A stretch of 56,080 bases of DNA, taken from positions 1-56,080 of the IMG/VR virus record IMGVR_UViG_3300037483_001430; one strand, given 5' to 3'. A program made the position numbers and the translations under genes. Positions 108 through 9,351 of this stretch are shown here, piece after piece (the stretch's first letter is position 1; every line of letters begins with the position of its first letter). The notes beneath the pieces were generated by a model. It had not been told where the DNA came from. It was given only the letters and a program-made list of their open reading frames with translations, and did no database searches. Origin of the DNA: a virus. Lineage: Duplodnaviria > Caudoviricetes.

Positions 108-406
108 GGCGGCGGCTTCGGCGGATCTACCGCCGCCTCCTTCGTGAGACGGAGGGCGACCGAACGATCCGCGTCCGTGTTCATCTCGCCGACGCCGATG
201 AGCCCGCCGAGCGTGGCCGCTATTCCGGCGCTCGCGAAGACGACGATCCTCCACGTGGTACCCGGCACGAGCAGTCCGAGTCCACCCGACGTGCCGGCGT
301 AGCCGAGCAAGAGGCTCCGCACCACCCGGCGCTGGACCTGGGGGTGGTAGACGAGCGCGGCGAACGCGCGGCGCAGGAACCCGAATGCGAGCCGCTTGCG
401 CGTCAT
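104..406 (-). CDS. Putative holin / small membrane protein
   Basis: 100 aa with two hydrophobic segments. ATGA-coupled to the endolysin. Confidence 0.55.
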   Translation of the reverse strand: MTRKRLAFGFLRRAFAALVYHPQVQRRVVRSLLLGYAGTSGGLGLLVPGTTWRIVVFASAGIAATLGGLIGVGEMNTDADRSVALRLTKEAAVDPPKPPP

Positions 407-909
407 GCGATCCTCCGGAACGGCCGGTACTTCGCCCCATCGTTCGTCTCGAGCGCGAGCAGCCGTGCTGGTGTCGTCGCCGGCGCGGCCTGCAAGTGGA
501 TCCACCCCATCTCGAGGATCACCTGGTCGACGTGCGCGAGCTCGCCGTTCTCGAGCGCGGCGGCGATCGCCCGCATCGCCTCCAGGCAGCCCATCCCGAT
601 CGGCTGCACGTCGGCCGCGAGGCCGAGGACGTGACGGCTCGTGGGGCGACCGCCGACGGCGCTATTGAGCCCGGGGCAGCGGAGCCCGCTCGTGACTCGG
701 AGCCCGCGCGCGCCGGCGCGGACGACGACGCCGCGCGTGGGCTCGAAGACGTCGCCGGCGAAGCGCCGCTGCGCGGTCGCGCGAAGCTCGGGGCTATCGC
801 GCCAGAAGCGGTCTTGCTCGGCCACGAAGGCGTGCCTCGATGTCGCCAGGAACTCGGCGACCGTGAGATGGTCCGAGAGGAGATCGAAGGGCGCGAGGAG
901 ATCCGTCAC
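403..909 (-). CDS. Endolysin, peptidase M15 family
   Basis: Motifs SGLRCPGLNSAVGG..TSRHVLGLAAD and GWIHL. Start placed at GTG 909. Confidence 0.85.
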   Translation of the reverse strand: MTDLLAPFDLLSDHLTVAEFLATSRHAFVAEQDRFWRDSPELRATAQRRFAGDVFEPTRGVVVRAGARGLRVTSGLRCPGLNSAVGGRPTSRHVLGLAADVQPIGMGCLEAMRAIAAALENGELAHVDQVILEMGWIHLQAAPATTPARLLALETNDGAKYRPFRRIA

Positions 910-964
910 GTGTAGGTGGTCCCCTCGTGCGCGAGGATGACGGGGATCGCGAGATCGAAGGTGC

Positions 965-1183
965 TCACCGGATCTCTCGCTCCCCGACGAGCTCCCGCGG
1001 ATAGGATCGGTAGCCCTCGCTCGTCGCAGCGATGACCACCGTCGGGCAGTTCGGGCAGGCAAAGCGCTCCGCTGGCAGGAAGGTCGATGCGGTCTCTTCG
1101 AGCCGCGCCTCGCCGTCACGAGTCATCTCGGCGCCGCAGAGCGGGCACGGTCTCGTGACGGCTGCGGCGAGCTCGACGAACAT
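965..1183 (-). CDS. Small zinc-ribbon protein
   Basis: CPLC...CPNC. Preceded by a promoter motif 6 nt upstream of the ATG. Confidence 0.6.
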   Translation of the reverse strand: MFVELAAAVTRPCPLCGAEMTRDGEARLEETASTFLPAERFACPNCPTVVIAATSEGYRSYPRELVGEREIR

Positions 1184-1189
1184 CCCGGG

Positions 1190-1222
1190 AGCATGGCACC
1201 CGGAGGCTCGGCCCCGGCGAAA
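1190..1222 (-). promoter_or_regulatory. Long-spacer promoter motif, leaderless (lysis region)
   Basis: TTTCGC-N21-CATGCT-N6-ATG. Confidence 0.55.
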
Positions 1223-1284
1223 TCGCCGCCGCCTCTAGCCGTTACAAGGGGCTCGCTGTTCGAGACGCGCGCCAGGGAAGGACG

Positions 1285-2619
1285 TCATCCCCCCACGGTC
1301 CATTCGACCGGCCTGTATCGGGAGACGTAGAGGACTGCTCTGTTGGACACGCTCTCGTCTGAGCGGAGGAAGATCCGCCCGCGCTCAGACCAGGAAGCCC
1401 CGCCGTCCGTGGAGACGAAGACGTTTCCGTCCACGAAGATCATCGCGAGAGCCTCGCCGACCCGCCCGCCGGCCTGAGACCCACCGCCAAGCCCTATAGG
1501 GTAGACAGACGTCCAGTGCTCGCCGTCGACGGTGTAGACGCACTCCGCACTTCCGAGGGCTACGATGCCACCGCCGGGACGAGGCATGATCTGCCAGGGG
1601 TTGTTCGATGGACATTCTAGCGTCCAGACCGCGGCATTCGCGTCGGAGGAGTAGACGCCGCCGGGATAGTCGTCGCCGTTGAATCTGCCCAGCGATACGC
1701 CGAGCCACCGGCTGCGCGGCGCGTCCCACATGAAGTCCCAGAAGTCCGGACCACCTCCCGGATTGCGGACTTCCCAGCTCTGCCCCTTGTCCGTGGACCG
1801 ATAGATATACTGCAATCCGGGCTGATAGCCCCACGGATCGCTCTCGTACTGGCACGTCAGAATGGAGTCCCCACCGTCCCAGCCTAGCCCGACGGCGGCG
1901 ACCCCCGCCATGCGTTGTGGGCTCGGCGTCCAGTTCTTGCCATCAGGAGCTGTGGCGCAGAAGTACGGGGCCTCATCGCCCCCTTGGTAGCCGACGGCTA
2001 GGAATCTATCCCCGATCCACGCCACGTTTTGGAATGCCACCCCTTGCCAGAACCCGGGCATATCGCCCGTAGCCCAGACGCCGTCCGTCAATGTGGCCCA
2101 AAACGTGCCCTGAAGCAGGCAGTAAACGGCGCCGTTCCATGCAGCGTCGCCCGCCCCTCCCACCGCCCCCTCGGGCATCGTGAACCCCGGGACTGCGGAA
2201 GTGAGATCGGGCAAGATTTCGACGGCAAACGGGATGGGGTTGCCTCCAGCCGAGGGAGAGGAGAACCCGCCCAAGACGGCGAACGGAGGGCCACCCGCCA
2301 GCGCCCCGAGCGGCCAGGGTGGTCGCGGCGGCGACACGTCCTCCGACGGGGTGGCCGCGTCCTGGACGAAGGCGCAGGCGTTCAGCGCACGCACCTTGGA
2401 AGTGAAGTGCGACGCGGGCTCGCGTTCATCCATGACGAACGCTGACGCGTTGGGGTCGGTGGCGGGCGAGACGAGGAAGCGCGTGCGGGGCTTGTCAGCG
2501 TCGAGCACGAGCGGCAATCGCGGCGCCTGCTGTAGAAGGACTTTCGCGGGCCCGCTCTGCGAGCCGATCTCGAGTCCCTCCACCGTCCCGTCGCTGTGCT
2601 GGATGTAGATCTTGGACAT
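1285..2619 (-). CDS. Putative receptor-binding tail protein: duplicated tail-tip module plus BNR/Asp-box beta-propeller
   Basis: N-terminal ~85 aa are paralogous to 2625..2930. Asp-box repeats APDGKNW, STDKGQSW, TVDGEHW, STDGGASW. Alternative start at 2637. Confidence 0.75.
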   Translation of the reverse strand: MSKIYIQHSDGTVEGLEIGSQSGPAKVLLQQAPRLPLVLDADKPRTRFLVSPATDPNASAFVMDEREPASHFTSKVRALNACAFVQDAATPSEDVSPPRPPWPLGALAGGPPFAVLGGFSSPSAGGNPIPFAVEILPDLTSAVPGFTMPEGAVGGAGDAAWNGAVYCLLQGTFWATLTDGVWATGDMPGFWQGVAFQNVAWIGDRFLAVGYQGGDEAPYFCATAPDGKNWTPSPQRMAGVAAVGLGWDGGDSILTCQYESDPWGYQPGLQYIYRSTDKGQSWEVRNPGGGPDFWDFMWDAPRSRWLGVSLGRFNGDDYPGGVYSSDANAAVWTLECPSNNPWQIMPRPGGGIVALGSAECVYTVDGEHWTSVYPIGLGGGSQAGGRVGEALAMIFVDGNVFVSTDGGASWSERGRIFLRSDESVSNRAVLYVSRYRPVEWTVGG

Positions 2620-2624
2620 GCGAC

Positions 2625-2930
2625 CTACTCGCTCCATCCCTCTTCTGTCGGGTTGTCGTAATCGTTGGCGTAGTAGCGATCGTCGTAGTTCACGGCCTTG
2701 ACGACGCTCGTGAAGGTGCTCTTCGCGTCCTTCTCCGTGACGAGAAAGGCCCTCGCAATCGGGCTCCCGTCGGGCACGATGTCGAAACGCGCCTGGCCAG
2801 AGAGGTCACCGTCCACAGCCAGGGCCAGCCGAGGCGCGCCGGCGAGCACCACCTTGTTGGACGCGCTGCCGGCCGAGACGTCGAGCGACTCGATCGTCCC
2901 GTCGACGTGCTGGAGGAAGATCGTTGGCAC
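2625..2930 (-). CDS. Detached C-terminal domain of the tail-tip protein
   Basis: IFLQHVDGT...APRL...AVNYDDRYYAND resembles the C-terminus of siphophage central tail proteins. Starts 1 nt after the TAA of the upstream gene. Confidence 0.7.
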   Translation of the reverse strand: MPTIFLQHVDGTIESLDVSAGSASNKVVLAGAPRLALAVDGDLSGQARFDIVPDGSPIARAFLVTEKDAKSTFTSVVKAVNYDDRYYANDYDNPTEEGWSE

Positions 2931-2931
2931 T

Positions 2932-5226
2932 TTAGAGGGTCACTGGCCGCGACAGGGTGAGCTCGAGACCGTCCTGCGCCGTGACCTCGCCGTCCTGCGT
3001 CCCGGCTCGCGTGTTGTCCGCCACCAGGATGCGGTCGAGCAGCACGAGCAGATCCGCTTCCTGCGTGGCCTCGAACTCGACGGCGATGTTCTGGTAGCGG
3101 ATCTTGTTCCAGATCCGCCACGCCTGGTAGTACGCCTGCACCCGCGAGCGCACGCCGATCGAGTCCACCTTCTTGGGGTTACGCGCCGAGAGGTCCTCGG
3201 GGATGTAGTATTTCACTGGCGCGTCGTCGACCGGTGAGACGTAGGAGAACTCGACCCCATCTATCGCGTCCTGATTGCCGAAGCGAACAGTCCGCGTTTC
3301 CGTCCCCGGGACCTTGTTCCGGTGATTGAAGAGGAGGACGCTGTCCTGCGTCTCCTTCTCGAAACTGAGCCGTATCTGAGAGCCGCGGCGGTAGGCCAGG
3401 CAGAACACCGCCATCGCGACCTGAGCGAGGCTCTCCTCGAAGGAGACATTGTCCTGGTCGAACGTGTAACAGAACTGCACGCACTTCGAGCCACCCGGGA
3501 AGTACGTCTCGACCTCGGCGATGGTGCTGTAGATGTTGTCGAGGTCGAGCTGGGAGTAGTCGGGCGTCACGCCGTCCGGGAGGACCCGTCGGCCGATAAA
3601 GGGATCGGTGCAGATGGCCACGATGATGTCATCGGCACGGATGGTCGGTTGTGGCTCGCTGAACGACGTATCGTAGTAGCGCGTCGGGATCTTGCGGGTG
3701 GCGAGCATGTTGAGCTTTCGCTCGTTCATCCTCCGGGCGTCGCGCGTCGCCCGGGTGACGGAGTAGACCGTCGTGACGTCCCCGAAGTGCTCCTGGGGGA
3801 CAGGGGCCACCGCATACAGGTCGGCCCACTTGATCGTGTCTTCGTAGGAATAGCGCTGGTAGTTGTAGGGGTGATCGCGCAGCGTGGCGAGGCGCGCGCG
3901 TACGGTGCAGTACCCGCCGGTGGCGATCTTGGCGGTGAGCGCCCGCTCAATCTTGGTCCCGGCGGAGCCGTTCAGGAAGACCTCCGTCACGTTGGGCGTG
4001 TCGGTCGGCGCGCCGGTCGCGTCGGTCGGGGTGATCTCGACCTGGATCACGGTATTCCACTGCGATTGCGGGGGCTCCGCCTCGTTGTCGTTACGATACA
4101 GCCCCTGCGGCGCCAGCAAGTTCACGAAGACGCGCGTTGCGTCGGGGACATCGACGAAGAACGGGCCAACCCAGTTCCCGCCCGCATCGGCGCCCTTGAT
4201 GTATCCCCCGGGTCCGCCGGTATTGACCGGGTTGGTGGTGTATATCATCCACCAGTCCTCGTTCACGCTCTGCGCATCGACGAGATAGATGTATCTCGGC
4301 GTGACGGACGCGATGACATAGGTGCCGGCAAGGTTAACTCCACCTGTCGTGAGCGCCACGTCGATGCTCTGCCCTTTGACGAAGTAGTCGGTGAAGTCCT
4401 GCGCCGACCCGAACGCGAGGCCGATCCAGTGTATATGTCGACCGTCGATGTCGACTCCATCGTTGCCGACCTGCATGTCCGAGGGGTTCGCGTTCCAGAA
4501 GGTCAAGTTCGGCGGCTTCAGTTGTTGGCCGTTCACGCCAGAGATTCGCTTCACGTTGAGCACCGGCTCAGGAAGCGTCCGACCGGGGGGGAGCGAGATG
4601 ATGGGCGTCCCAGAATTGGGCGACGTGTTGGGATCGTAGATGAGAACGGTGTTCGCGTCGATGTCCGTGATCGGGGTCGTGCCTTCCCGAATGCTGGGCA
4701 CGTCGATCTCGTAGCTCCCGCGGCCGAGGCACATGTAGCAATACTCGACCTCGGTGTTCCCCTCGTAGACTCGATACGGCACGGCCACGAGATCCGGAAT
4801 GGCGCGCACCTGACCGAAGATGTCGGGGATCCGCCCGTTGATGCGCTCCGAATTGCTGCGGTTGGACAGGCTGTTAGCTGCCGCGCCCGGAGGGGTCTGT
4901 GATGGCGTGCTCGGCCGCAAGAGAAAATAAGTGGCGACAGATGCCGCCACCGCGACCACCGCCAGGACTATGGCGGCTACCTCGATGCCCGTCCCCGGGT
5001 AGACCACCACGTAGAACGGCCCTGCCAGTTCCCCCAGCTTCTCGATGCCCCGCTCGTCGGCGGGCGTGACGTCGCAACAGAGCGCGACTTGCTCATGGTA
5101 GATGCGCGCCCCCGCCGGCCATTGCGGGAAGCTCTCCATGAGGAACTCCCGGATGTCCGGGACCTCATGCCTCGTCCACGATGATGGGTCGAAGGGATCC
5201 TGCGCGAGCGTGACCGTCTTCAGCAT
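2932..5226 (-). CDS. Central tail-tip / host-specificity (J-like) protein
   Basis: RIPDIFGQVRAIPDL motif. Position after the NlpC/P60 gene. Start placed at MLKTV. Confidence 0.85.
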   Translation of the reverse strand: MLKTVTLAQDPFDPSSWTRHEVPDIREFLMESFPQWPAGARIYHEQVALCCDVTPADERGIEKLGELAGPFYVVVYPGTGIEVAAIVLAVVAVAASVATYFLLRPSTPSQTPPGAAANSLSNRSNSERINGRIPDIFGQVRAIPDLVAVPYRVYEGNTEVEYCYMCLGRGSYEIDVPSIREGTTPITDIDANTVLIYDPNTSPNSGTPIISLPPGRTLPEPVLNVKRISGVNGQQLKPPNLTFWNANPSDMQVGNDGVDIDGRHIHWIGLAFGSAQDFTDYFVKGQSIDVALTTGGVNLAGTYVIASVTPRYIYLVDAQSVNEDWWMIYTTNPVNTGGPGGYIKGADAGGNWVGPFFVDVPDATRVFVNLLAPQGLYRNDNEAEPPQSQWNTVIQVEITPTDATGAPTDTPNVTEVFLNGSAGTKIERALTAKIATGGYCTVRARLATLRDHPYNYQRYSYEDTIKWADLYAVAPVPQEHFGDVTTVYSVTRATRDARRMNERKLNMLATRKIPTRYYDTSFSEPQPTIRADDIIVAICTDPFIGRRVLPDGVTPDYSQLDLDNIYSTIAEVETYFPGGSKCVQFCYTFDQDNVSFEESLAQVAMAVFCLAYRRGSQIRLSFEKETQDSVLLFNHRNKVPGTETRTVRFGNQDAIDGVEFSYVSPVDDAPVKYYIPEDLSARNPKKVDSIGVRSRVQAYYQAWRIWNKIRYQNIAVEFEATQEADLLVLLDRILVADNTRAGTQDGEVTAQDGLELTLSRPVTL

Positions 5227-5576
5227 GAGTAGTACCTCACGATCTCGAACCCGAGGGCGGCTACCTCCAGCGGCTGGAACTGCACGCCCCGCTCCCGAAT
5301 GTGCAGGACGCGCCCGCGCGCGAAGACGCCCACGTGCGGTTCCCCGCGCCGCCGGCTCATGAAAACGAGACATGGGCTCTCGGGCGTCTCGAGCCGGCGG
5401 AACGCATCGAAGTGGCGCTTCCCGAGCGTCCTCGTCTCCGGGTCAAGGACGCCCGCCAGGCGCTCGCCGATGTCCACGCCGGTGAGGTCGAGCATGACGT
5501 CGCGCGCGAAGTGGAGGCAGTTGTACCGGCGGTGGTCGTAGGCCCGCGCGAGGTATTGATCGAAGCTCGCGATCAT
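5220..5576 (-). CDS. NlpC/P60-like tail assembly protein
   Basis: YNCLHF...HVGVF..GRVLH catalytic pattern. Confidence 0.8.
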   Translation of the reverse strand: MIASFDQYLARAYDHRRYNCLHFARDVMLDLTGVDIGERLAGVLDPETRTLGKRHFDAFRRLETPESPCLVFMSRRRGEPHVGVFARGRVLHIRERGVQFQPLEVAALGFEIVRYYSC

Positions 5577-6079
5577 GACGTGAGAAAGCCCCTCAACATC
5601 GGGAACCTGGCAATAGAATACGCCTCCCCCGTCTTCGTCACGTTCACGGACGGCGCCTTGGCCTCGAAGGACGCGCCGTCCTTGGTGAAGCTGAACGTCT
5701 CCACCTCGAGCATGAGTGCCGGGAAGAGCGGGGCCGAGAGGTCGTCCGAGCGGTAGCAGCGGTAGATGATGGTGGGCTTCGTCGAGAAGCCGCCCGCGGC
5801 GGCGACGGCGTCGAGCTCCGTGGGCAGGATCTCGCCCAGGTCGCCCAGGTCCACCCGGATGCCCGAATCGAGGTTGTCCCGGTTCCCGACCGGGGTCATC
5901 TGCAGCGGGTAGTAGTCGAAGGTCGCGTCCGTGGAGTCCTCGAGCGTCACGGTGACGCCGGCCACGGCGTTGCGTACGATCCGGTACGTCCTCGAGAATG
6001 CGGGGTGCGAGATCTCGAGGAGCTCGAGCTGGACGACGTCGGTGCGCGAGTTGAGGAAGAACTCCGAGTAGCGGCTCAT
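5573..6079 (-). CDS. Minor tail protein (DUF1833-like)
   Basis: LELLEISHPAFS..YRIVRN ... Y...RFP.L. ATGA overlaps at both ends. Confidence 0.8.
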   Translation of the reverse strand: MSRYSEFFLNSRTDVVQLELLEISHPAFSRTYRIVRNAVAGVTVTLEDSTDATFDYYPLQMTPVGNRDNLDSGIRVDLGDLGEILPTELDAVAAAGGFSTKPTIIYRCYRSDDLSAPLFPALMLEVETFSFTKDGASFEAKAPSVNVTKTGEAYSIARFPMLRGFLTS

Positions 6080-6435
6080 GGCGTCACCGCGGGCTCGACG
6101 AAGAGCTCGGCTCTCACGACGTAGGTGAGCCCCGCATACTCGGAGAGGCCGAAGGTCCCAGGCGCGAAGCAAACCCGGTGCTGGGTCGGCACCGCCTCCT
6201 CGAAGATGAGATCGAGGAGGAACGGGAGGCCCTTGTTCGTCCCGTAGAACGTGCGGAGCGTCACGTAGTCGGTCGTGCCCACCGTCCACTGGACCTGCAT
6301 CTTGGCCCAGGCGCCGATGACGTCGAGCCGGATGCGAGGGGCTCCGCCGGCGAGCTCCACGGAGAGGACCTCGGGGCCGTCGAGGAAGCTGTACCCGCTC
6401 TTGTCCGGCGGGATGGTGAGCTTCGCGAGCGCCAC
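6076..6435 (-). CDS. Distal/minor tail protein
   Basis: Directly follows the tape measure gene. GYS..DG.EV.SV.L.GG..R pattern. Confidence 0.7.
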   Translation of the reverse strand: MALAKLTIPPDKSGYSFLDGPEVLSVELAGGAPRIRLDVIGAWAKMQVQWTVGTTDYVTLRTFYGTNKGLPFLLDLIFEEAVPTQHRVCFAPGTFGLSEYAGLTYVVRAELFVEPAVTP

Positions 6436-9351
6436 CTACCGCCTCCGCGGGGCCGTCGTGCTCGTGCCGAGGGCGCTCGAGGTGCGGCTGTTGGGGTTCC
6501 GCAAGTCGGCAGCGATGACGCTCGGGCCTTCCTTGTGGAGCGTCTTGCGCGCTTCGTCCCGAGCCATGATCCGGACCTCGGAGGGCGAGAGCTGCTGCAC
6601 CTCGAAGGCCTTCGAGGTGCCGTAGTTCTGGATGGAGACGTTCATGGACGCGCCGCCGCGGCCGCCAGCGCCCGACGACACCGCGCGGCCGGCGTTCATC
6701 GCCTCGAGCAGCGGGCGGTTTCGGGCGGTCGCGTCCGCGTTCATGACGAACTCCCGGCCGTGGACCACGCCGGCGACGTCGTGCCGCCCGACGTCGCCCG
6801 TGTACCCGCCCGATTCGAGCGAGACGCCTCCCGCGACGGCGAGCCCTTCCGAGAGCGCGACCGTGCCGGCTATGGCAGCAGCTGCCGGGGCAGCGTTCGC
6901 GCCGAACGTGGCGAGGGAGACGTAGGAGGCTGCAGTAGCCCATGCCGCGGCCGTCGTAGCGGCCATCCCCGCGCTCGCCGCTGTCGCGGCCTCGCCGGCG
7001 GCTGTGCCGATCGTCGCGTTGAGGACCATCTGGATGCCCATCTTGATGAGCCCGGCGAGGAGTGCGGCAAGGCCCTCCTGCGCCACCTGGTGCAGCGCGT
7101 CCCCGATGTTCTCGCCGAAGACGATCCCGCGCGCGGTCGCCTGGGCGAATCCATCCTCCAGACTGTTCGTGAGCGTCCCGAACTCCGCTCCGGCGCGGGC
7201 GGCGAAGTTGACCGTGGCCCTCTCCATCACCCCGAGCTGTTGCACGTAGCCGTCGGCGAAGCTGCCCCTCCCGGCGTCCAGGCGGAGGCGCATCATCTCG
7301 AGGGCGTATCGCTGGGCGGAGATCGCCCCGCGCTTGAAGAGATCGTCGAGGGCCTGCTCGCCGCGGATGAACTTCTGCTGCGGGCCCTGGATCTTCTCGA
7401 AGATCGCATCGCGTTCCTGCATGACCTTGTTGGCCTCCGCGATGGACGCGATCGAGGATCGTTCCGCCGTCCCGAGCTCCTTCGTGACGGTGACGCCGGC
7501 GGCCTTGAGCTGCTTCTCTTCGGCGAGCCACTTCGATTCGGCCTCGCGAGCCTGGGCGTCGAGATGGAACCCGGCCACCTCCTGCTCGCGTGCGCGGCGA
7601 ACAGCCTCGAGAGGGTGGATGACGTCCTTCAGCTTCTCGCCGAGCTGCCCGAGATACGTGAGGCGCTGGGCCTCGGTGATTGAGCCCTCTGCCTCGGCCT
7701 TCTGCAGAAGCCTCTCGGCTTCTGTGAGCTTGCGAAGCGCAGACTCGGCGGGCGCGACCTCGTCGATGATGCCGTGGGCGCTGCCGCCCTTCCTCCCGAG
7801 CTGGATCTCTTCGGCCATGGCCTTGCGCTGCAGCGCGGCCTGCGCCTCCCCTGAAGCATCGATGATGCGCTGCTGGTCTTCCGCCGCTGCGTTCGCGTTC
7901 TCGAGGAGCGTCCGATCGCGCTTCACCTGTTCTTCCACCAGGGCCGCGTCGAGGCGTAACTGGATCGCCTCCTGCTCGCTGGCCGAGGCGAGCTGCGCCT
8001 CGGTGAGCGCGCGCCGCGCCGCCTGAGCCTGGTCGAGCTCGGCCTTGTAGGCGAGCTCGCGACCCTGCGCAATGTCGATGGGCGCGGCGAAGCCGGCGAG
8101 CTTGCCCTTCATCTCTTCGAGGCCGGCGACCTGCGCGTCGATCGCCTTCAGGCGATTGTTCTGGATATCCCAGGCGAAGGTGGCTTTCGTCTCGGCGTTC
8201 CGCACATTCTCGACCTCGACGCGCTCGCGCTTGAGCGCTTCCGTCTGGGCATCGATGTCGGCCGTCTGCTCCCGCGTCCAGGTCTGCCCCTTGGATCGCG
8301 CCAGGCTCTGATCGTTGAGACCGGCTGCGGCTCGCTTGGCCGCGTCGGCGCGCTGGTGCTCCTCGCTCTCCAGGACGGCGGGGACCACCTTTTCGATGAA
8401 GTCGATGGAGATGCGGATCTTCTTCTGCTGGAGAACGGCGAGCTCGTTCTGAAGCTGATTCAAGTGTCGGATGAGCTCATCCACCTCGGTCTTCACACCG
8501 AGCGCGTGTTTGAAGTCGTCCCAGGGCCCGCTCGCCGCAGCGACCTTGGTCTTCACCGCCGTCATCTCGTCGCCGAGCCTGCCCGCCTCTTGCTGGATGG
8601 AACGGAATTGGCTCGTGATCCAGGTCTCGCCTTTCCCTCTCGCGTTGAGACTGGCGATGAACTCCTCCACCGCCTCGCGTCCCTCGCGCAGCATGCCCGC
8701 GTACTTGGCCGCAGCATCAGCCGCCTCGAACTGCAGCTTCTTCTGCTCCTCGAGCTTCTCGCCGAGCAGTTGCAGTCCGGCCATCACCACCTCGATGGCG
8801 AAACCGATCCCCAGGCCGCCGATCATCGCGCCGGCGAGGAGCCGCATGCCTTCCCCCGCCGCAGAGGACGCGGGGATGAGCCCGTTGAGTGATCCCGCAA
8901 AGAAGTTCACGAGCCGGTTCTCGGCCACGATCTCCTTCTTCAGGGAGAGGAGCCCGCCCGTGTGCCGTTCGTGTCCCTGAGAAGCCCCCTCGCCAGCCTT
9001 CTTCAGCGTCGCGAGCTCACCCGAAAGTCGTTTCACCTCCGCCTCGAGCGCCGCGCTGCTCACCGTGGCCCCGTCCGCGCCCTTCGCGCCCAGCTTGAAC
9101 GCCGTGGCGGCTTCATTCATCCCTACGCCCACGACCTCGACGCGGTCGACGAGGCTGCCCATCCGCGTCGCGAGCTGACCAATTTCAGTCTGCAGCGCGC
9201 CGGAAGTGGCCTGGCTCGCCTTGAACGCCGCCATGAGCGCGTCGACGTTCGAGGCACTCTTCTCCGCCGACACGCCGAGCTCGTCGAGATTGCGCTTCAC
9301 CGTGCGGGAGCCGGTCTCGCTGACGACGATGTCAATGACCTCGGCGCCCAT
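6436..9351 (-). CDS. Tape measure protein
   Basis: 971 aa Ala/Glu-rich helical protein. C-terminal GGYTG...AGVVHGREFV. Confidence 0.9.
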   Translation of the reverse strand: MGAEVIDIVVSETGSRTVKRNLDELGVSAEKSASNVDALMAAFKASQATSGALQTEIGQLATRMGSLVDRVEVVGVGMNEAATAFKLGAKGADGATVSSAALEAEVKRLSGELATLKKAGEGASQGHERHTGGLLSLKKEIVAENRLVNFFAGSLNGLIPASSAAGEGMRLLAGAMIGGLGIGFAIEVVMAGLQLLGEKLEEQKKLQFEAADAAAKYAGMLREGREAVEEFIASLNARGKGETWITSQFRSIQQEAGRLGDEMTAVKTKVAAASGPWDDFKHALGVKTEVDELIRHLNQLQNELAVLQQKKIRISIDFIEKVVPAVLESEEHQRADAAKRAAAGLNDQSLARSKGQTWTREQTADIDAQTEALKRERVEVENVRNAETKATFAWDIQNNRLKAIDAQVAGLEEMKGKLAGFAAPIDIAQGRELAYKAELDQAQAARRALTEAQLASASEQEAIQLRLDAALVEEQVKRDRTLLENANAAAEDQQRIIDASGEAQAALQRKAMAEEIQLGRKGGSAHGIIDEVAPAESALRKLTEAERLLQKAEAEGSITEAQRLTYLGQLGEKLKDVIHPLEAVRRAREQEVAGFHLDAQAREAESKWLAEEKQLKAAGVTVTKELGTAERSSIASIAEANKVMQERDAIFEKIQGPQQKFIRGEQALDDLFKRGAISAQRYALEMMRLRLDAGRGSFADGYVQQLGVMERATVNFAARAGAEFGTLTNSLEDGFAQATARGIVFGENIGDALHQVAQEGLAALLAGLIKMGIQMVLNATIGTAAGEAATAASAGMAATTAAAWATAASYVSLATFGANAAPAAAAIAGTVALSEGLAVAGGVSLESGGYTGDVGRHDVAGVVHGREFVMNADATARNRPLLEAMNAGRAVSSGAGGRGGASMNVSIQNYGTSKAFEVQQLSPSEVRIMARDEARKTLHKEGPSVIAADLRNPNSRTSSALGTSTTAPRRR

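What the first reader, a model, noticed from the sequence alone, without database searches (positions are those of the whole stretch)
1285..5226. Tail-tip C-terminal domain split off and duplicated, one copy carrying a beta-propeller: candidate plug-in receptor-binding adaptor
Seen: the tail-tip gene stops at ...LTLSRPVTL-TAA, and 1 nt later a 101-aa ORF starts (MPTIFLQHVDGTIESL...KVVL..APRL.L..D...AFLV.E....S.FTS.V.AVNYDDRYYAND). The next gene begins with a clear paralogue of that module (MSKIYIQHSDGTVEGL...KVLL..APRLPL.LD...AFVM.E....SHFTS.VRALN), then a Pro-rich linker and an Asp-box propeller. Both copies start at the same register, which argues for an evolved split over a sequencing indel. 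Recalled: this module normally forms the C-terminus of the single-chain central tail protein. Inference: the truncated hub exposes a socket that either the bare cap or the propeller-bearing cap can fill, giving interchangeable or mixed tail tips.
Basis: partly seen in the sequence, partly recalled or inferred. Interest (0 to 1): 0.85.

Follow-up and report, generated by a model that had tools for sequence, protein, structure and literature searches.

The report
Split phage tail-tip with duplicated anchor
In this uncultured sediment phage the last small piece of the tail-tip hub protein is made as a separate protein and a second, diverged copy of it carries a propeller-shaped probable host-binding domain, a natural tag-and-socket way of mounting a receptor binder that so far rests on sequence comparison and a predicted complex.

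Summary
On the minus strand the tail-tip hub gene (2932-5226, 764 aa) stops at TAA. One base later a GTG opens a 101-aa ORF (2625-2930). The next gene (1285-2619, 444 aa) begins with a paralogue of that ORF in the same register (43% over 81 aa, E 3e-19), followed by a Pro-rich linker and a BNR/Asp-box-type propeller.

In relatives the module is part of the hub chain: 32 of 32 longer protein hits and 56 of 56 related viral loci. None of those loci has a second copy.

The split is very probably real. Contigs built by another assembler from two runs are identical. A variant contig from another study bridges the junction without a gap.

A quick tree puts both copies in one clade (SH-aLRT 97), so the duplication arose within this lineage. 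An 83%-identical orthologue of the propeller gene and three further stand-alone modules exist elsewhere.

A predicted complex docks the propeller's module on the hub's last domain by strand pairing (0.66, best control 0.00). This may only reflect likeness to solved single-chain hubs.

Whether the bare and loaded modules share one socket is untested.

I rate it a new variant of a known kind. This scan's earlier AI notes describe analogous split hubs on other DNA.

The parts
2932..5226 (-). Tail-tip hub core (baseplate hub 2 protein / gpJ-like), 764 aa, lacking the family's C-terminal module
   Evidence: phrog_469 E 1.6e-158 and phrog_31 (central tail fiber J) E 5.9e-19. PDB 9occ_E, Sf11 gp14, E 2.7e-12. 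All 12 near-invariant C-terminal hub positions checked are kept.
2928..2934 (-). Fission junction: TAA stop of the hub, one A, GTG start of the module ORF (TAAAGTG)
   Evidence: Read directly. A TGA lies in the module frame three codons upstream. Logan contigs of X1 and X2 are identical here, and X4 record 27 (2630-3047) bridges it with 0 gaps.
2625..2930 (-). Bare module, 101 aa: the orthologue of the hub's usual C-terminal module, made as a separate protein
   Evidence: phrog_469 positions 803-900 of 903, E 9.6e-15. 47-59% identical to modules of fused homologues. GC3 0.87. Keeps the AVNYDDRYYAND motif.
2329..2619 (-). Second, diverged copy of the module: residues 1-97 of the 444-aa protein, the predicted anchor
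   Evidence: 43% over 81 aa to the bare module, E 3e-19. Same clade as the bare module, SH-aLRT 97, on a long branch of 1.55. Predicted to dock on hub residues 575-764, score 0.66 against a best control of 0.00.
2215..2364 (-). Pro/Ala/Gly-rich linker (residues 86-135 of the 444-aa protein)
   Evidence: 11 Pro, 7 Ala and 7 Gly of 50 residues.
1285..2214 (-). BNR/Asp-box-type beta-propeller, the probable receptor-binding cargo (residues about 136-444, plus stop)
   Evidence: Sub-threshold Pfam BNR and Sortilin-Vps10 hits. Asp-box-like motifs at residues 156, 184, 224, 275, 324, 363 and 403. Atlas structure matches at TM 0.65-0.75 to propeller clusters. Orthologue P0036 at 83% identity.
5220..5576 (-). 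Context: small tail-tip protein (DUF6950-like, phrog_329), overlapping the hub start by 7 nt
5573..6022 (-). Context: baseplate hub 1 protein (DUF1833, phrog_396)
   Evidence: Pfam PF08875 E 1.1e-9 and phrog_396 E 5.2e-32. The counterpart of Sf11 gp16 by position and by the paper's table.
6076..6435 (-). Context: short distal-tail-protein candidate, 119 aa
   Evidence: phrog_384 E 2.9e-7. It occupies the position between the tape measure and hub 1 genes, as in loci L001-L003.
6436..9351 (-). Context: tape measure protein, 971 aa
   Evidence: ORF and position, with synteny to L001-L003. Not scanned against a family library here.
403..1119 (-). Context: endolysin. The propeller gene is therefore the last tail gene before lysis.
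   Evidence: phrog_894 E 1.6e-14. Same order (hub with cargo, then lysis genes) in the Acinetobacter phage loci L003 and L063.

Best explanation
This is a real gene fission and duplication in a siphophage tail-tip hub of the Sf11 gp14 / phage chi BH2P / lambda gpJ kind.

The ancestral single chain was hub plus a roughly 95-residue beta module, often with host-binding cargo after the module. Here it is encoded as three proteins:
1. The hub core.
2. The orthologous module on its own. It is probably translated by termination-reinitiation, because its GTG lies one base after the hub's stop and has no visible Shine-Dalgarno sequence.
3. A diverged paralogue of the module, duplicated within this lineage, joined by a Pro-rich linker to a BNR-type propeller.

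The module is not an independent cap. It supplies strands that complete the hub's last domain. A module-bearing protein therefore attaches in trans by fold complementation.

The propeller protein is the phage's receptor binder. It is the last tail gene before lysis, no other fibre or spike gene lies in the tail operon, and the distal tail protein candidate is too short to carry a docking arm. It is mounted on the tip through its module.

The three sockets of the trimeric tip would then be shared between bare and propeller-bearing modules.

Shown here: the fission, the paralogy, the fused state in relatives, the conservation in a second strain and in an 83% orthologue, and the common origin of the two copies.

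Inferred: translation by coupling, docking (a model only), the receptor-binding role, and above all the sharing of one socket.
For: The fission is real:
- Logan contigs of 22,906 nt from runs X1 (depth 89) and X2 (depth 30) match 1200-5400 with 0 differences and 0 gaps. Both runs may be the source, but the assembler differs.
- X4, from another study and year, has a 418-nt contig over 2630-3047 with 6 substitutions and 0 gaps. X3 has a contig over 2537-2939 with 7 substitutions and 0 gaps.
- Fusing the frames would need an indel within about 9 nt.
- GC3 of the 101-aa ORF is 0.87.

The family is normally fused:
- 32 of 32 longer hits and 56 of 56 viral loci.
- 0 of 56 loci has a second module copy, and 0 of 56 has a propeller match.
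- Among 182 session proteins: 112 have the module C-terminal, 62 have it internal followed by cargo, 6 have it alone (2 are the window's own, 1 is a fragment without Met) and 2 have it N-terminal with cargo (the window's own and P0036).

Both genes are kept elsewhere:
- P0036 is 83% identical over 444 aa with the same start.
- P0002 (59% identical), P0045 and P0149 are stand-alone modules whose Met lies 1-4 residues before the IFLQ strand.

The duplication arose in this lineage: the clade {bare module, P0002, propeller copy, P0036} has SH-aLRT 97 among 181 modules.

Docking:
- ipSAE 0.66 (median of three runs) against a best of 3 controls of 0.00. This mark was reached by 58 of 80 solved complexes and 2 of 110 mismatched pairs. 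The counts hold only roughly because my own alignments were used.
- The runs agree in at least 87% of contacts and the partner's pLDDT is at least 75.
- The module modelled alone is confident only over residues 1-40.

Cargo role:
- PF13385 lectin-like cargo follows the module in P0008, P0016 and P0018.
- Acinetobacter phages have hub, module and cargo in one chain, followed by lysis genes.

The family tolerates fission: in L051 and L054 the hub is split at about residue 340.
Against: - X1 and X2 may be the very samples the record came from, and contigs drop rare variants. A minority fused form cannot be excluded.
- Two of the six substitutions in the X4 contig were not listed, so I did not see its stop and start codons letter by letter. 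With 0 gaps the two frames still differ.
- The complex pass may come from likeness to solved single-chain hubs such as 9OCC. It shows that the copy still looks like a fitting module, not that it binds.
- Only the propeller's module was folded with the hub. The bare module and the competition between the two were not tested.
- The propeller's copy lacks the near-invariant Tyr residues of NYDDRYY and lies on a branch of 1.55.
- Identity between the two copies is no higher at predicted contact positions (25 of 67) than elsewhere (14 of 30), Fisher p 0.50.
- The tree is the quick search with SH-aLRT only, on 102 columns. The careful search did not finish.
- I could not see the contigs of P0002, P0036, P0045 or P0149. 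Their gene neighbourhoods, and whether a hub stop precedes them, are unknown.
- No expression or virion data exist.
Confidence: 0.5

Rival explanations
1. The fission is real, but the two modules are not interchangeable. The bare, conserved, translationally coupled module always completes the hub and is simply the hub's detached last piece. The propeller's diverged module has acquired a different docking site, for example on the assembled hub-plus-module surface or on another tip protein.
For: - The bare module keeps every family motif and is 47-59% identical to fused modules.
- The propeller copy has lost the NYDDRYY tyrosines and sits on a 1.55 branch.
- The bare ORF starts 1 nt after the hub stop, which suggests equimolar synthesis.
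- Long retention of the bare copy (P0002 at 59% identity) is easiest to explain if it is indispensable.
- There is no excess conservation at predicted contacts.
Against: - No second site is known or predicted.
- The only model places the propeller's module in the hub's C-terminal domain with high confidence, though a homologue would be placed there anyway.
Confidence: 0.25
2. This is an artefact or decay. The stop and frame change are an assembly or sequencing error, or a recent inactivating mutation in a defective prophage. The bare module would then be a leftover of a cassette exchange with no function of its own.
For: - The fused frame differs by a single base, and a CCC run lies in the 9-nt window.
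- 56 of 56 related viral loci are fused.
- X1 and X2 may be the source samples.
Against: - A different assembler gives the same letters at depths 89 and 30, and a diverged strain from another study keeps the frame offset.
- A start codon sits exactly at the module boundary, as in P0002, P0045 and P0149.
- The ORF is intact with GC3 0.87.
- The four listed substitutions in the module ORF are two synonymous and two changes to residues seen in homologues (S24P as in P0002, Y91F as in L006).
- CheckV completeness of the record is given as 100.
Confidence: 0.1
3. This is programmed recoding. A +1 ribosomal frameshift at CUC-UAA-A produces some full-length hub-module chain, while termination gives the truncated hub, so the ratio of closed to open sockets is set during translation.
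For: The module frame is +1 relative to the hub, and the shift window of about 9 nt ends at the stop codon. A stop in the A site is the classical pause for +1 shifts; this is recalled from prfB and comes from no call.
Against: - By eye, the 30 nt upstream show no slippery re-pairing (CUC to UCU) and no Shine-Dalgarno-like stimulator.
- A start codon at the exact boundary, and stand-alone homologues starting with Met, fit independent initiation better.
Confidence: 0.05

Closest known systems
Baseplate hub 2 protein of Shigella siphophage Sf11 (gp14, 828 aa, PDB 9OCC chain E) and of phage chi
   Same: Homologous hub: E 2.7e-12 for the window's hub, and E 6.6e-30 for the 47%-identical fused relative P0003, whose module aligns with gp14 up to residue 821. 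Same partner gene (DUF1833 hub 1 protein) and same gene order. Three copies per virion with residues 81-827 modelled, according to the paper's table (passages of PMC12724387 seen).
   Different: Sf11 gp14 is one chain that includes the module and carries no cargo. Its tailspike docks on a long arm of the 457-aa distal tail protein. Here the module is detached and duplicated, the distal tail protein candidate is 119 aa, and the receptor binder appears to hang on the hub.
Hub-module-cargo tail proteins of Acinetobacter Vieuvirus phages (e.g. YMC/09/02/B1251 YP_007010630.1, 1148 aa; Ab1656-2 UFJ83237.1)
   Same: The same module (31-34% identity, E about 1e-5) lies after the hub and is followed by some 300 aa of cargo. 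Lysis genes come next, the same order as in the window.
   Different: They are one chain with one module copy. The cargo is unrelated to the propeller, as far as tblastn against related viral loci shows (which did not include these phage loci).
Lambda gpJ / T1 gp33 / T5 pb3 tail-tip hubs
   Same: A trimeric cone-forming hub whose C-terminal extension carries the host-recognition part (passage of PMC11945409). Weak match of hub residues 599-764 to phrog_31 'central tail fiber J'.
   Different: No central fibre here. The sequence relation is limited to one region. Those proteins are single chains.
N-terminal adaptor domains that mount tailspikes on tails (Sf11 gp13 on gp17; T7 gp17-type and CBA120/G7C-type anchors are recalled and come from no call)
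   Same: It works like them: a small conserved N-terminal piece anchors a variable receptor-binding body.
   Different: Here the anchor is a paralogue of the hub's own last module. It is predicted to bind by completing the hub's fold, not by docking on a dedicated adaptor.
Earlier AI notes of this scan on other DNA (e1-5999482, e1-6081420, e1-5660747)
   Same: These notes describe split tail-tip hubs whose detached module is encoded more than once, bare or loaded.
   Different: They concern other hub families (megatron/g15-type, Tal/gp27-type) and other genomes. They are unchecked notes, not publications, and were not tested here.

Membership tests
phrog_469 / BH2P-type siphophage tail-tip hub (Sf11 gp14, chi BH2P) | Sequence match to the family profile and to a solved member | tested here: met
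   phrog_469 E 1.6e-158. 9occ_E E 2.7e-12.
phrog_469 / BH2P-type siphophage tail-tip hub (Sf11 gp14, chi BH2P) | Gene order: tape measure, distal tail protein, DUF1833 hub 1, small NlpC-like protein, hub 2 | tested here: met
   Same order in L001-L003.
phrog_469 / BH2P-type siphophage tail-tip hub (Sf11 gp14, chi BH2P) | One polypeptide that includes the C-terminal module (profile positions 803-900) | tested here: not met
   The hub matches the profile only to position 796. The module is a separate ORF in another frame. By contrast it is fused in 56 of 56 viral loci.
phrog_469 / BH2P-type siphophage tail-tip hub (Sf11 gp14, chi BH2P) | Trimer closing the tail tip in the virion | not testable with these tools
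   No particles exist for this record, which comes from a metagenome.
Lambda gpJ central tail fibre (phrog_31) | Match along the hub, and a C-terminal central fibre with a receptor-binding domain | tested here: not met
   Only residues 599-764 match positions 600-770 of a 1565-position profile, E 5.9e-19. The protein ends there.
BNR/Asp-box beta-propeller (Pfam PF02012, PF15902, PF25852-like) | Pfam score above the gathering threshold | tested here: not met
   BNR 19 bits against 27; Sortilin-Vps10 20.6 bits against 33.
BNR/Asp-box beta-propeller (Pfam PF02012, PF15902, PF25852-like) | Repeated Asp-box motifs and a propeller fold | tested here: inconclusive
   Seven S/T-x-D-...-W motifs, the last five 39-51 residues apart. 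The Atlas's own model matches propeller clusters at TM 0.65-0.75 by query. My AlphaFold2 model was unusable, pLDDT 28.8.
prfB-type +1 programmed frameshift site | Slippery codon that can re-pair in the +1 frame before a stop, with an upstream Shine-Dalgarno-like stimulator | tested here: not met
   Read by eye: CUC UAA A with no re-pairing and no GGAGG-like run upstream. The motif definition is recalled.

The most novel reading that the evidence does not exclude
The tail tip is built by natural split-protein complementation. A truncated trimeric hub offers three sockets, each completed in trans by one of two paralogous modules, bare or propeller-loaded. The phage can then set the number of receptor binders per tip (0 to 3) through the relative synthesis of the two proteins. 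It can also exchange the binder without touching the essential hub. Together with the analogous splits noted by this scan in other hub families, this would be a general, previously undescribed plug-in principle of siphophage host-range evolution.
Probability: 0.3. Interest if true: 0.75.

Novelty: new variant of a known kind. Interest (0 to 1): 0.6.

Why it matters
Tail-tip hubs of this family are known as single chains that sometimes end in host-binding cargo. A conserved natural form, in which the junction module is detached and duplicated, would show that the module can work as a trans-acting anchor.

That would explain how receptor-binding cargo moves between phages at this junction. It would raise the possibility of tips with mixed occupancy. 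It would also offer a small (about 95-residue) tag and a matching socket for mounting chosen binding domains on siphophage tails in laboratory phage engineering.

It also serves as a warning for annotation. The 101-aa ORF has no Pfam hit, and by position alone it would be called hypothetical.

Tried and rejected
**AlphaFold2 of the 444-aa protein.** With a two-row alignment it gave mean pLDDT 28.8. The model was unusable, and no fold search was run on it.

**AlphaFold2 of the 101-aa module.** With 45 rows it gave mean pLDDT 64.8, with only residues 1-40 confident. I did not send it to fold search, because low-confidence models give meaningless matches. No fold name is therefore claimed for the module. 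Sequence search of the PDB with the module alone gave only a weak hit to an AcfD-homologue lipoprotein (E 4e-4), which I did not follow up.

**Contact conservation test.** Identity between the two copies is 25 of 67 at predicted contact positions and 14 of 30 elsewhere, p 0.50. This supports neither reading, and the test has low power.

**Searches for context.**
- Genome contigs with the hub and with the propeller alignment: no relative found.
- Viral contigs with the propeller alignment, P0061 and P0149: nothing.
- Viral contigs with the hub alone: one locus.
- Metagenome contigs with P0061: only a 63% relative, L062, which is fused to a hub.

As a result the neighbourhoods of P0002, P0036, P0045, P0149 and P0061 remain unseen.

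**Horizontal acquisition of a foreign module-cargo cassette.** I considered this as the origin of the second copy. I rejected it as the leading view because both copies fall in one clade (SH-aLRT 97). The tree is a quick one on 102 columns.

**Runs X3 and X4.** They cover only parts of the stretch at depth 2-6, and their uncovered parts say nothing. X3's contig reaches only 5 nt beyond the hub's stop, so I do not count it as bridging the junction.

**Literature.**
- ('tail tip', 'siphophage', 'split', 'receptor-binding protein', 'fold complementation'; at least 4 of 5 terms): 20 papers, 10 listings seen.
- ('tail tip protein', 'gene fission', 'bacteriophage', 'receptor-binding'; at least 3 of 4 terms): 67 papers, 10 listings seen, none holding 'gene fission'.

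Neither search listed a description of a split BH2P/gpJ-type hub with a duplicated module. I saw only titles and abstract starts, so this is weak evidence that it is not in print.

Of PMC12724387 I saw passages only. Of PMC11945409 I saw two passages.

**Earlier notes by sequence.** No look-alike was found.

Full report
**What is there**

The window is a complete 56,080-nt IMG/VR virus record with 68% GC. Its left end carries, on the minus strand, a siphophage tail operon:
- tape measure (6436-9351);
- a 119-aa distal-tail-protein candidate (6076-6435, phrog_384);
- a DUF1833 protein (5573-6022, phrog_396), the counterpart of 'baseplate hub 1';
- a small DUF6950-like protein (5220-5576);
- a 764-aa hub (2932-5226; phrog_469 E 1.6e-158);
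- a 101-aa ORF (2625-2930);
- a 444-aa ORF (1285-2619);
- a small unassigned ORF (965-1183) and an endolysin (403-1119, phrog_894).

The hub stops at TAA (2934-2932). One A follows, and GTG at 2930 opens the 101-aa ORF. In that ORF's frame a TGA lies three codons upstream, so only a frame change inside about 9 nt could fuse the two.

The 444-aa protein starts in the same register with a paralogue of the 101-aa ORF (35 of 81 identical, E 3e-19). It continues with a linker holding 11 Pro in 50 residues. It ends in a region with seven Asp-box-like motifs, sub-threshold Pfam BNR and Sortilin-Vps10 hits, and Atlas structural neighbours that are BNR/DUF6242_C/PSII_BNR propellers (TM 0.65-0.75 by query). 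My own model of this protein failed (pLDDT 28.8).

**What the module is in relatives**

The phrog_469 profile (903 positions) matches the hub up to position 796 and the 101-aa ORF at 803-900.

All 32 longer proteins found with the 101-aa ORF contain a hub-homologous region followed, 7-10 residues later, by the module.

In 56 of 56 related viral loci the module lies in the same open frame as the hub. Of these, 42 end within 13 residues after the module, 12 continue with 26-511 residues of cargo, and 2 are cut by the contig end. L006 and L016 come from one contig.

None of the 56 has a second module copy, even at E up to 1, and none has anything like the propeller.

A profile search of 1.84 billion representatives found 534 proteins at E up to 0.001. 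Among the best 150, the module starts within the first ten residues in only five: two are the window's own, one is a fragment without Met, and the other two are P0045 and P0149.

The module is also present, fused and modelled, in the solved baseplate hub 2 protein gp14 of Shigella phage Sf11. This is PDB 9OCC chain E, 828 aa with residues 81-827 modelled and three copies per virion (passages of PMC12724387).

In cultured Acinetobacter phages the same module sits between the hub and about 300 residues of cargo in one chain, followed by lysis genes.

The module is therefore the normal end of the hub and the normal junction for cargo. Some of that cargo is lectin-like (PF13385 in P0008, P0016 and P0018).

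**Is the split real?**

Logan contigs of 22,906 nt from runs X1 (depth 89) and X2 (depth 30) reproduce 1200-5400 without a single difference or gap. Both runs may be the source samples, so this excludes an assembler error but not a systematic read error.

A run from another study and year (X4) has a 418-nt contig over 2630-3047 with six substitutions and no gap. A diverged strain therefore keeps the one-base frame offset. X3 has a contig over 2537-2939 with seven substitutions and no gap, but it ends 5 nt past the stop. Only four of the X4 substitutions were listed, so I did not see its stop and start codons directly.

The 101-aa ORF has GC3 0.87 against GC2 0.44, like its neighbours. Of the four listed substitutions in it, two are synonymous. 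The other two change residues to ones seen in homologues: S24P as in P0002 and Y91F as in L006.

Three other stand-alone modules from other sources (P0002 at 59% identity, P0045 and P0149) begin with Met 1-4 residues before the first strand. Fused proteins have a Met-free linker at that place.

The fission point lies in that variable linker. From hub residue 750 to the IFLQ strand there are 22 residues in 45 of the 56 fused rows where the motif was found (70 rows in all), against 18 in the window. All 12 near-invariant positions checked in the hub's C-terminal part are kept.

The family also tolerates fission elsewhere. In L051 and L054 the hub is two ORFs cut at about residue 340.

I put the probability that the split is genuine at about 0.85.

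**Origin of the second copy**

In a tree of 181 modules, four rows form a clade with SH-aLRT 97: the bare module, P0002, the propeller's module and the module of P0036. P0036 is an 83%-identical, 448-aa orthologue of the propeller protein with the same start. The two propeller copies sit on a branch of 1.55.

This favours a duplication within the lineage followed by fast divergence of the loaded copy, not capture of a foreign cassette. The tree is a quick one on 102 columns, and the careful search did not finish.

The loaded copy has lost the near-invariant tyrosines of the NYDDRYY motif, which both C-terminal and cargo-bearing fused forms keep.

The X3 variant's listed changes in the propeller gene coincide with P0036's residues (for example D64A, A69G, H71Q, V364A). 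In that strain the propeller gene is far more diverged than the bare module: 25 differences plus an in-frame 3-nt deletion in 606 nt, against 7 differences in 403 nt. That is the pattern expected of a host-range determinant.

**How it probably works**

I folded the hub (764 aa, 71-row alignment) with residues 1-97 of the propeller protein (45-row alignment). This gave ipSAE 0.66 (median of three runs), with 0.00 for the best of three controls.

That mark was reached by 58 of 80 solved complexes and 2 of 110 mismatched pairs, although the counts hold only roughly with my own alignments. The runs agree in at least 87% of contacts, and the partner's pLDDT is at least 75.

The interface is large, with more than 220 contacts, and confined to hub residues 575-764. 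It includes antiparallel strand pairing: hub 714-719 with module 75-80, and hub 754-756 with module 27-29.

Modelled alone, the bare module is confident only over its first 40 residues (a different predictor).

I read this as fold complementation: the module completes the hub's last domain. Because the fused form is solved, the pass may only reflect that likeness. It shows that the loaded copy still looks like a fitting module, not that it binds.

The propeller protein is the last tail gene before lysis. No other fibre or spike gene was seen in the tail operon. The distal-tail-protein candidate has 119 residues, whereas the Sf11 protein whose arm carries the tailspikes has 457. I therefore infer that the propeller is the receptor binder and is mounted on the hub through its module.

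**What remains open**

The alternative is that the bare one always completes the hub while the loaded one binds elsewhere.

For a shared socket: homology and the model. Against it: the lost motif, the long branch, the retention of the bare copy over a long time, and no excess conservation at predicted contacts (p 0.50).

A +1 frameshift producing some fused chain is possible by geometry. The sequence shows no re-pairing codon and no stimulator (the motif definition is recalled).

**Comparison and novelty**

The hub is a member of the phrog_469 / BH2P family by sequence and synteny, but it fails the family's single-chain feature.

The arrangement works like N-terminal adaptor systems for tailspikes, except that the anchor is a paralogue of the hub's own last module.

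Two literature searches (listings only) showed no description of such a split. Earlier AI notes of this scan describe analogous split hubs with bare and loaded modules in other hub families on other DNA. These are unchecked and are not evidence here, but they mean the theme is not unique to this window.

I rate it a new variant of a known kind, with interest 0.6.

Noticed in passing
L051:2446-5879 and L054:2446-5345: In two related viral loci the hub itself is two ORFs, cut at about residue 336-347 (336 + 812 aa, and 347 + 618 aa with adjoining stop and start). The cut lies at the place where other homologues carry a variable insertion. This is a second natural fission point in the family.
   Followed up: partly
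P0061 (417 aa, from a 37,050-nt JGI contig) and L062:2-1663: P0061 has four repeats of about 19 residues (ITS.S.EVLR-like), then the module, then about 240 aa of cargo, with no hub part. A 63%-identical copy of the same module and cargo is fused to a hub in L062. Module-cargo units therefore occur both fused and detached.
   Followed up: partly
window 1200-1805 versus 2537-2939 (run X3): A variant strain in another sediment metagenome differs much more in the propeller gene than in the bare module: 25 substitutions plus an in-frame 3-nt deletion in 606 nt, against 7 substitutions in 403 nt. Its listed changes match the NCBI orthologue P0036.
   Followed up: partly
window 965-1183 (-): A 72-aa ORF between the propeller gene and the endolysin has two Cys pairs (CPLC...CPNC), looks like a zinc ribbon and has no PHROG hit. 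It lies within the longest reading (to 1119) of the endolysin ORF, in another frame.
   Followed up: no
window about 4870-4945 (-), hub residues about 95-120: The hub has a strongly hydrophobic stretch near its N-terminus (GIEVAAIVLAVVAVAASVATYFLL). In Sf11 gp14 the first 80 residues were not modelled.
   Followed up: no
P0132 (146 aa, from a 15,463-nt ENA contig): This is a called protein that starts inside the hub's last strand (…DGLALELSEPVDL…) and continues through the module. Its nearest relative in the tree, P0179, is fused. It may be another fission point or a frameshift error.
   Followed up: no
window 6076-6435 (-): The distal-tail-protein candidate has only 119 aa, far shorter than the 457-aa Sf11 gp17 whose C-terminal arm holds the tailspikes.
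   Followed up: no
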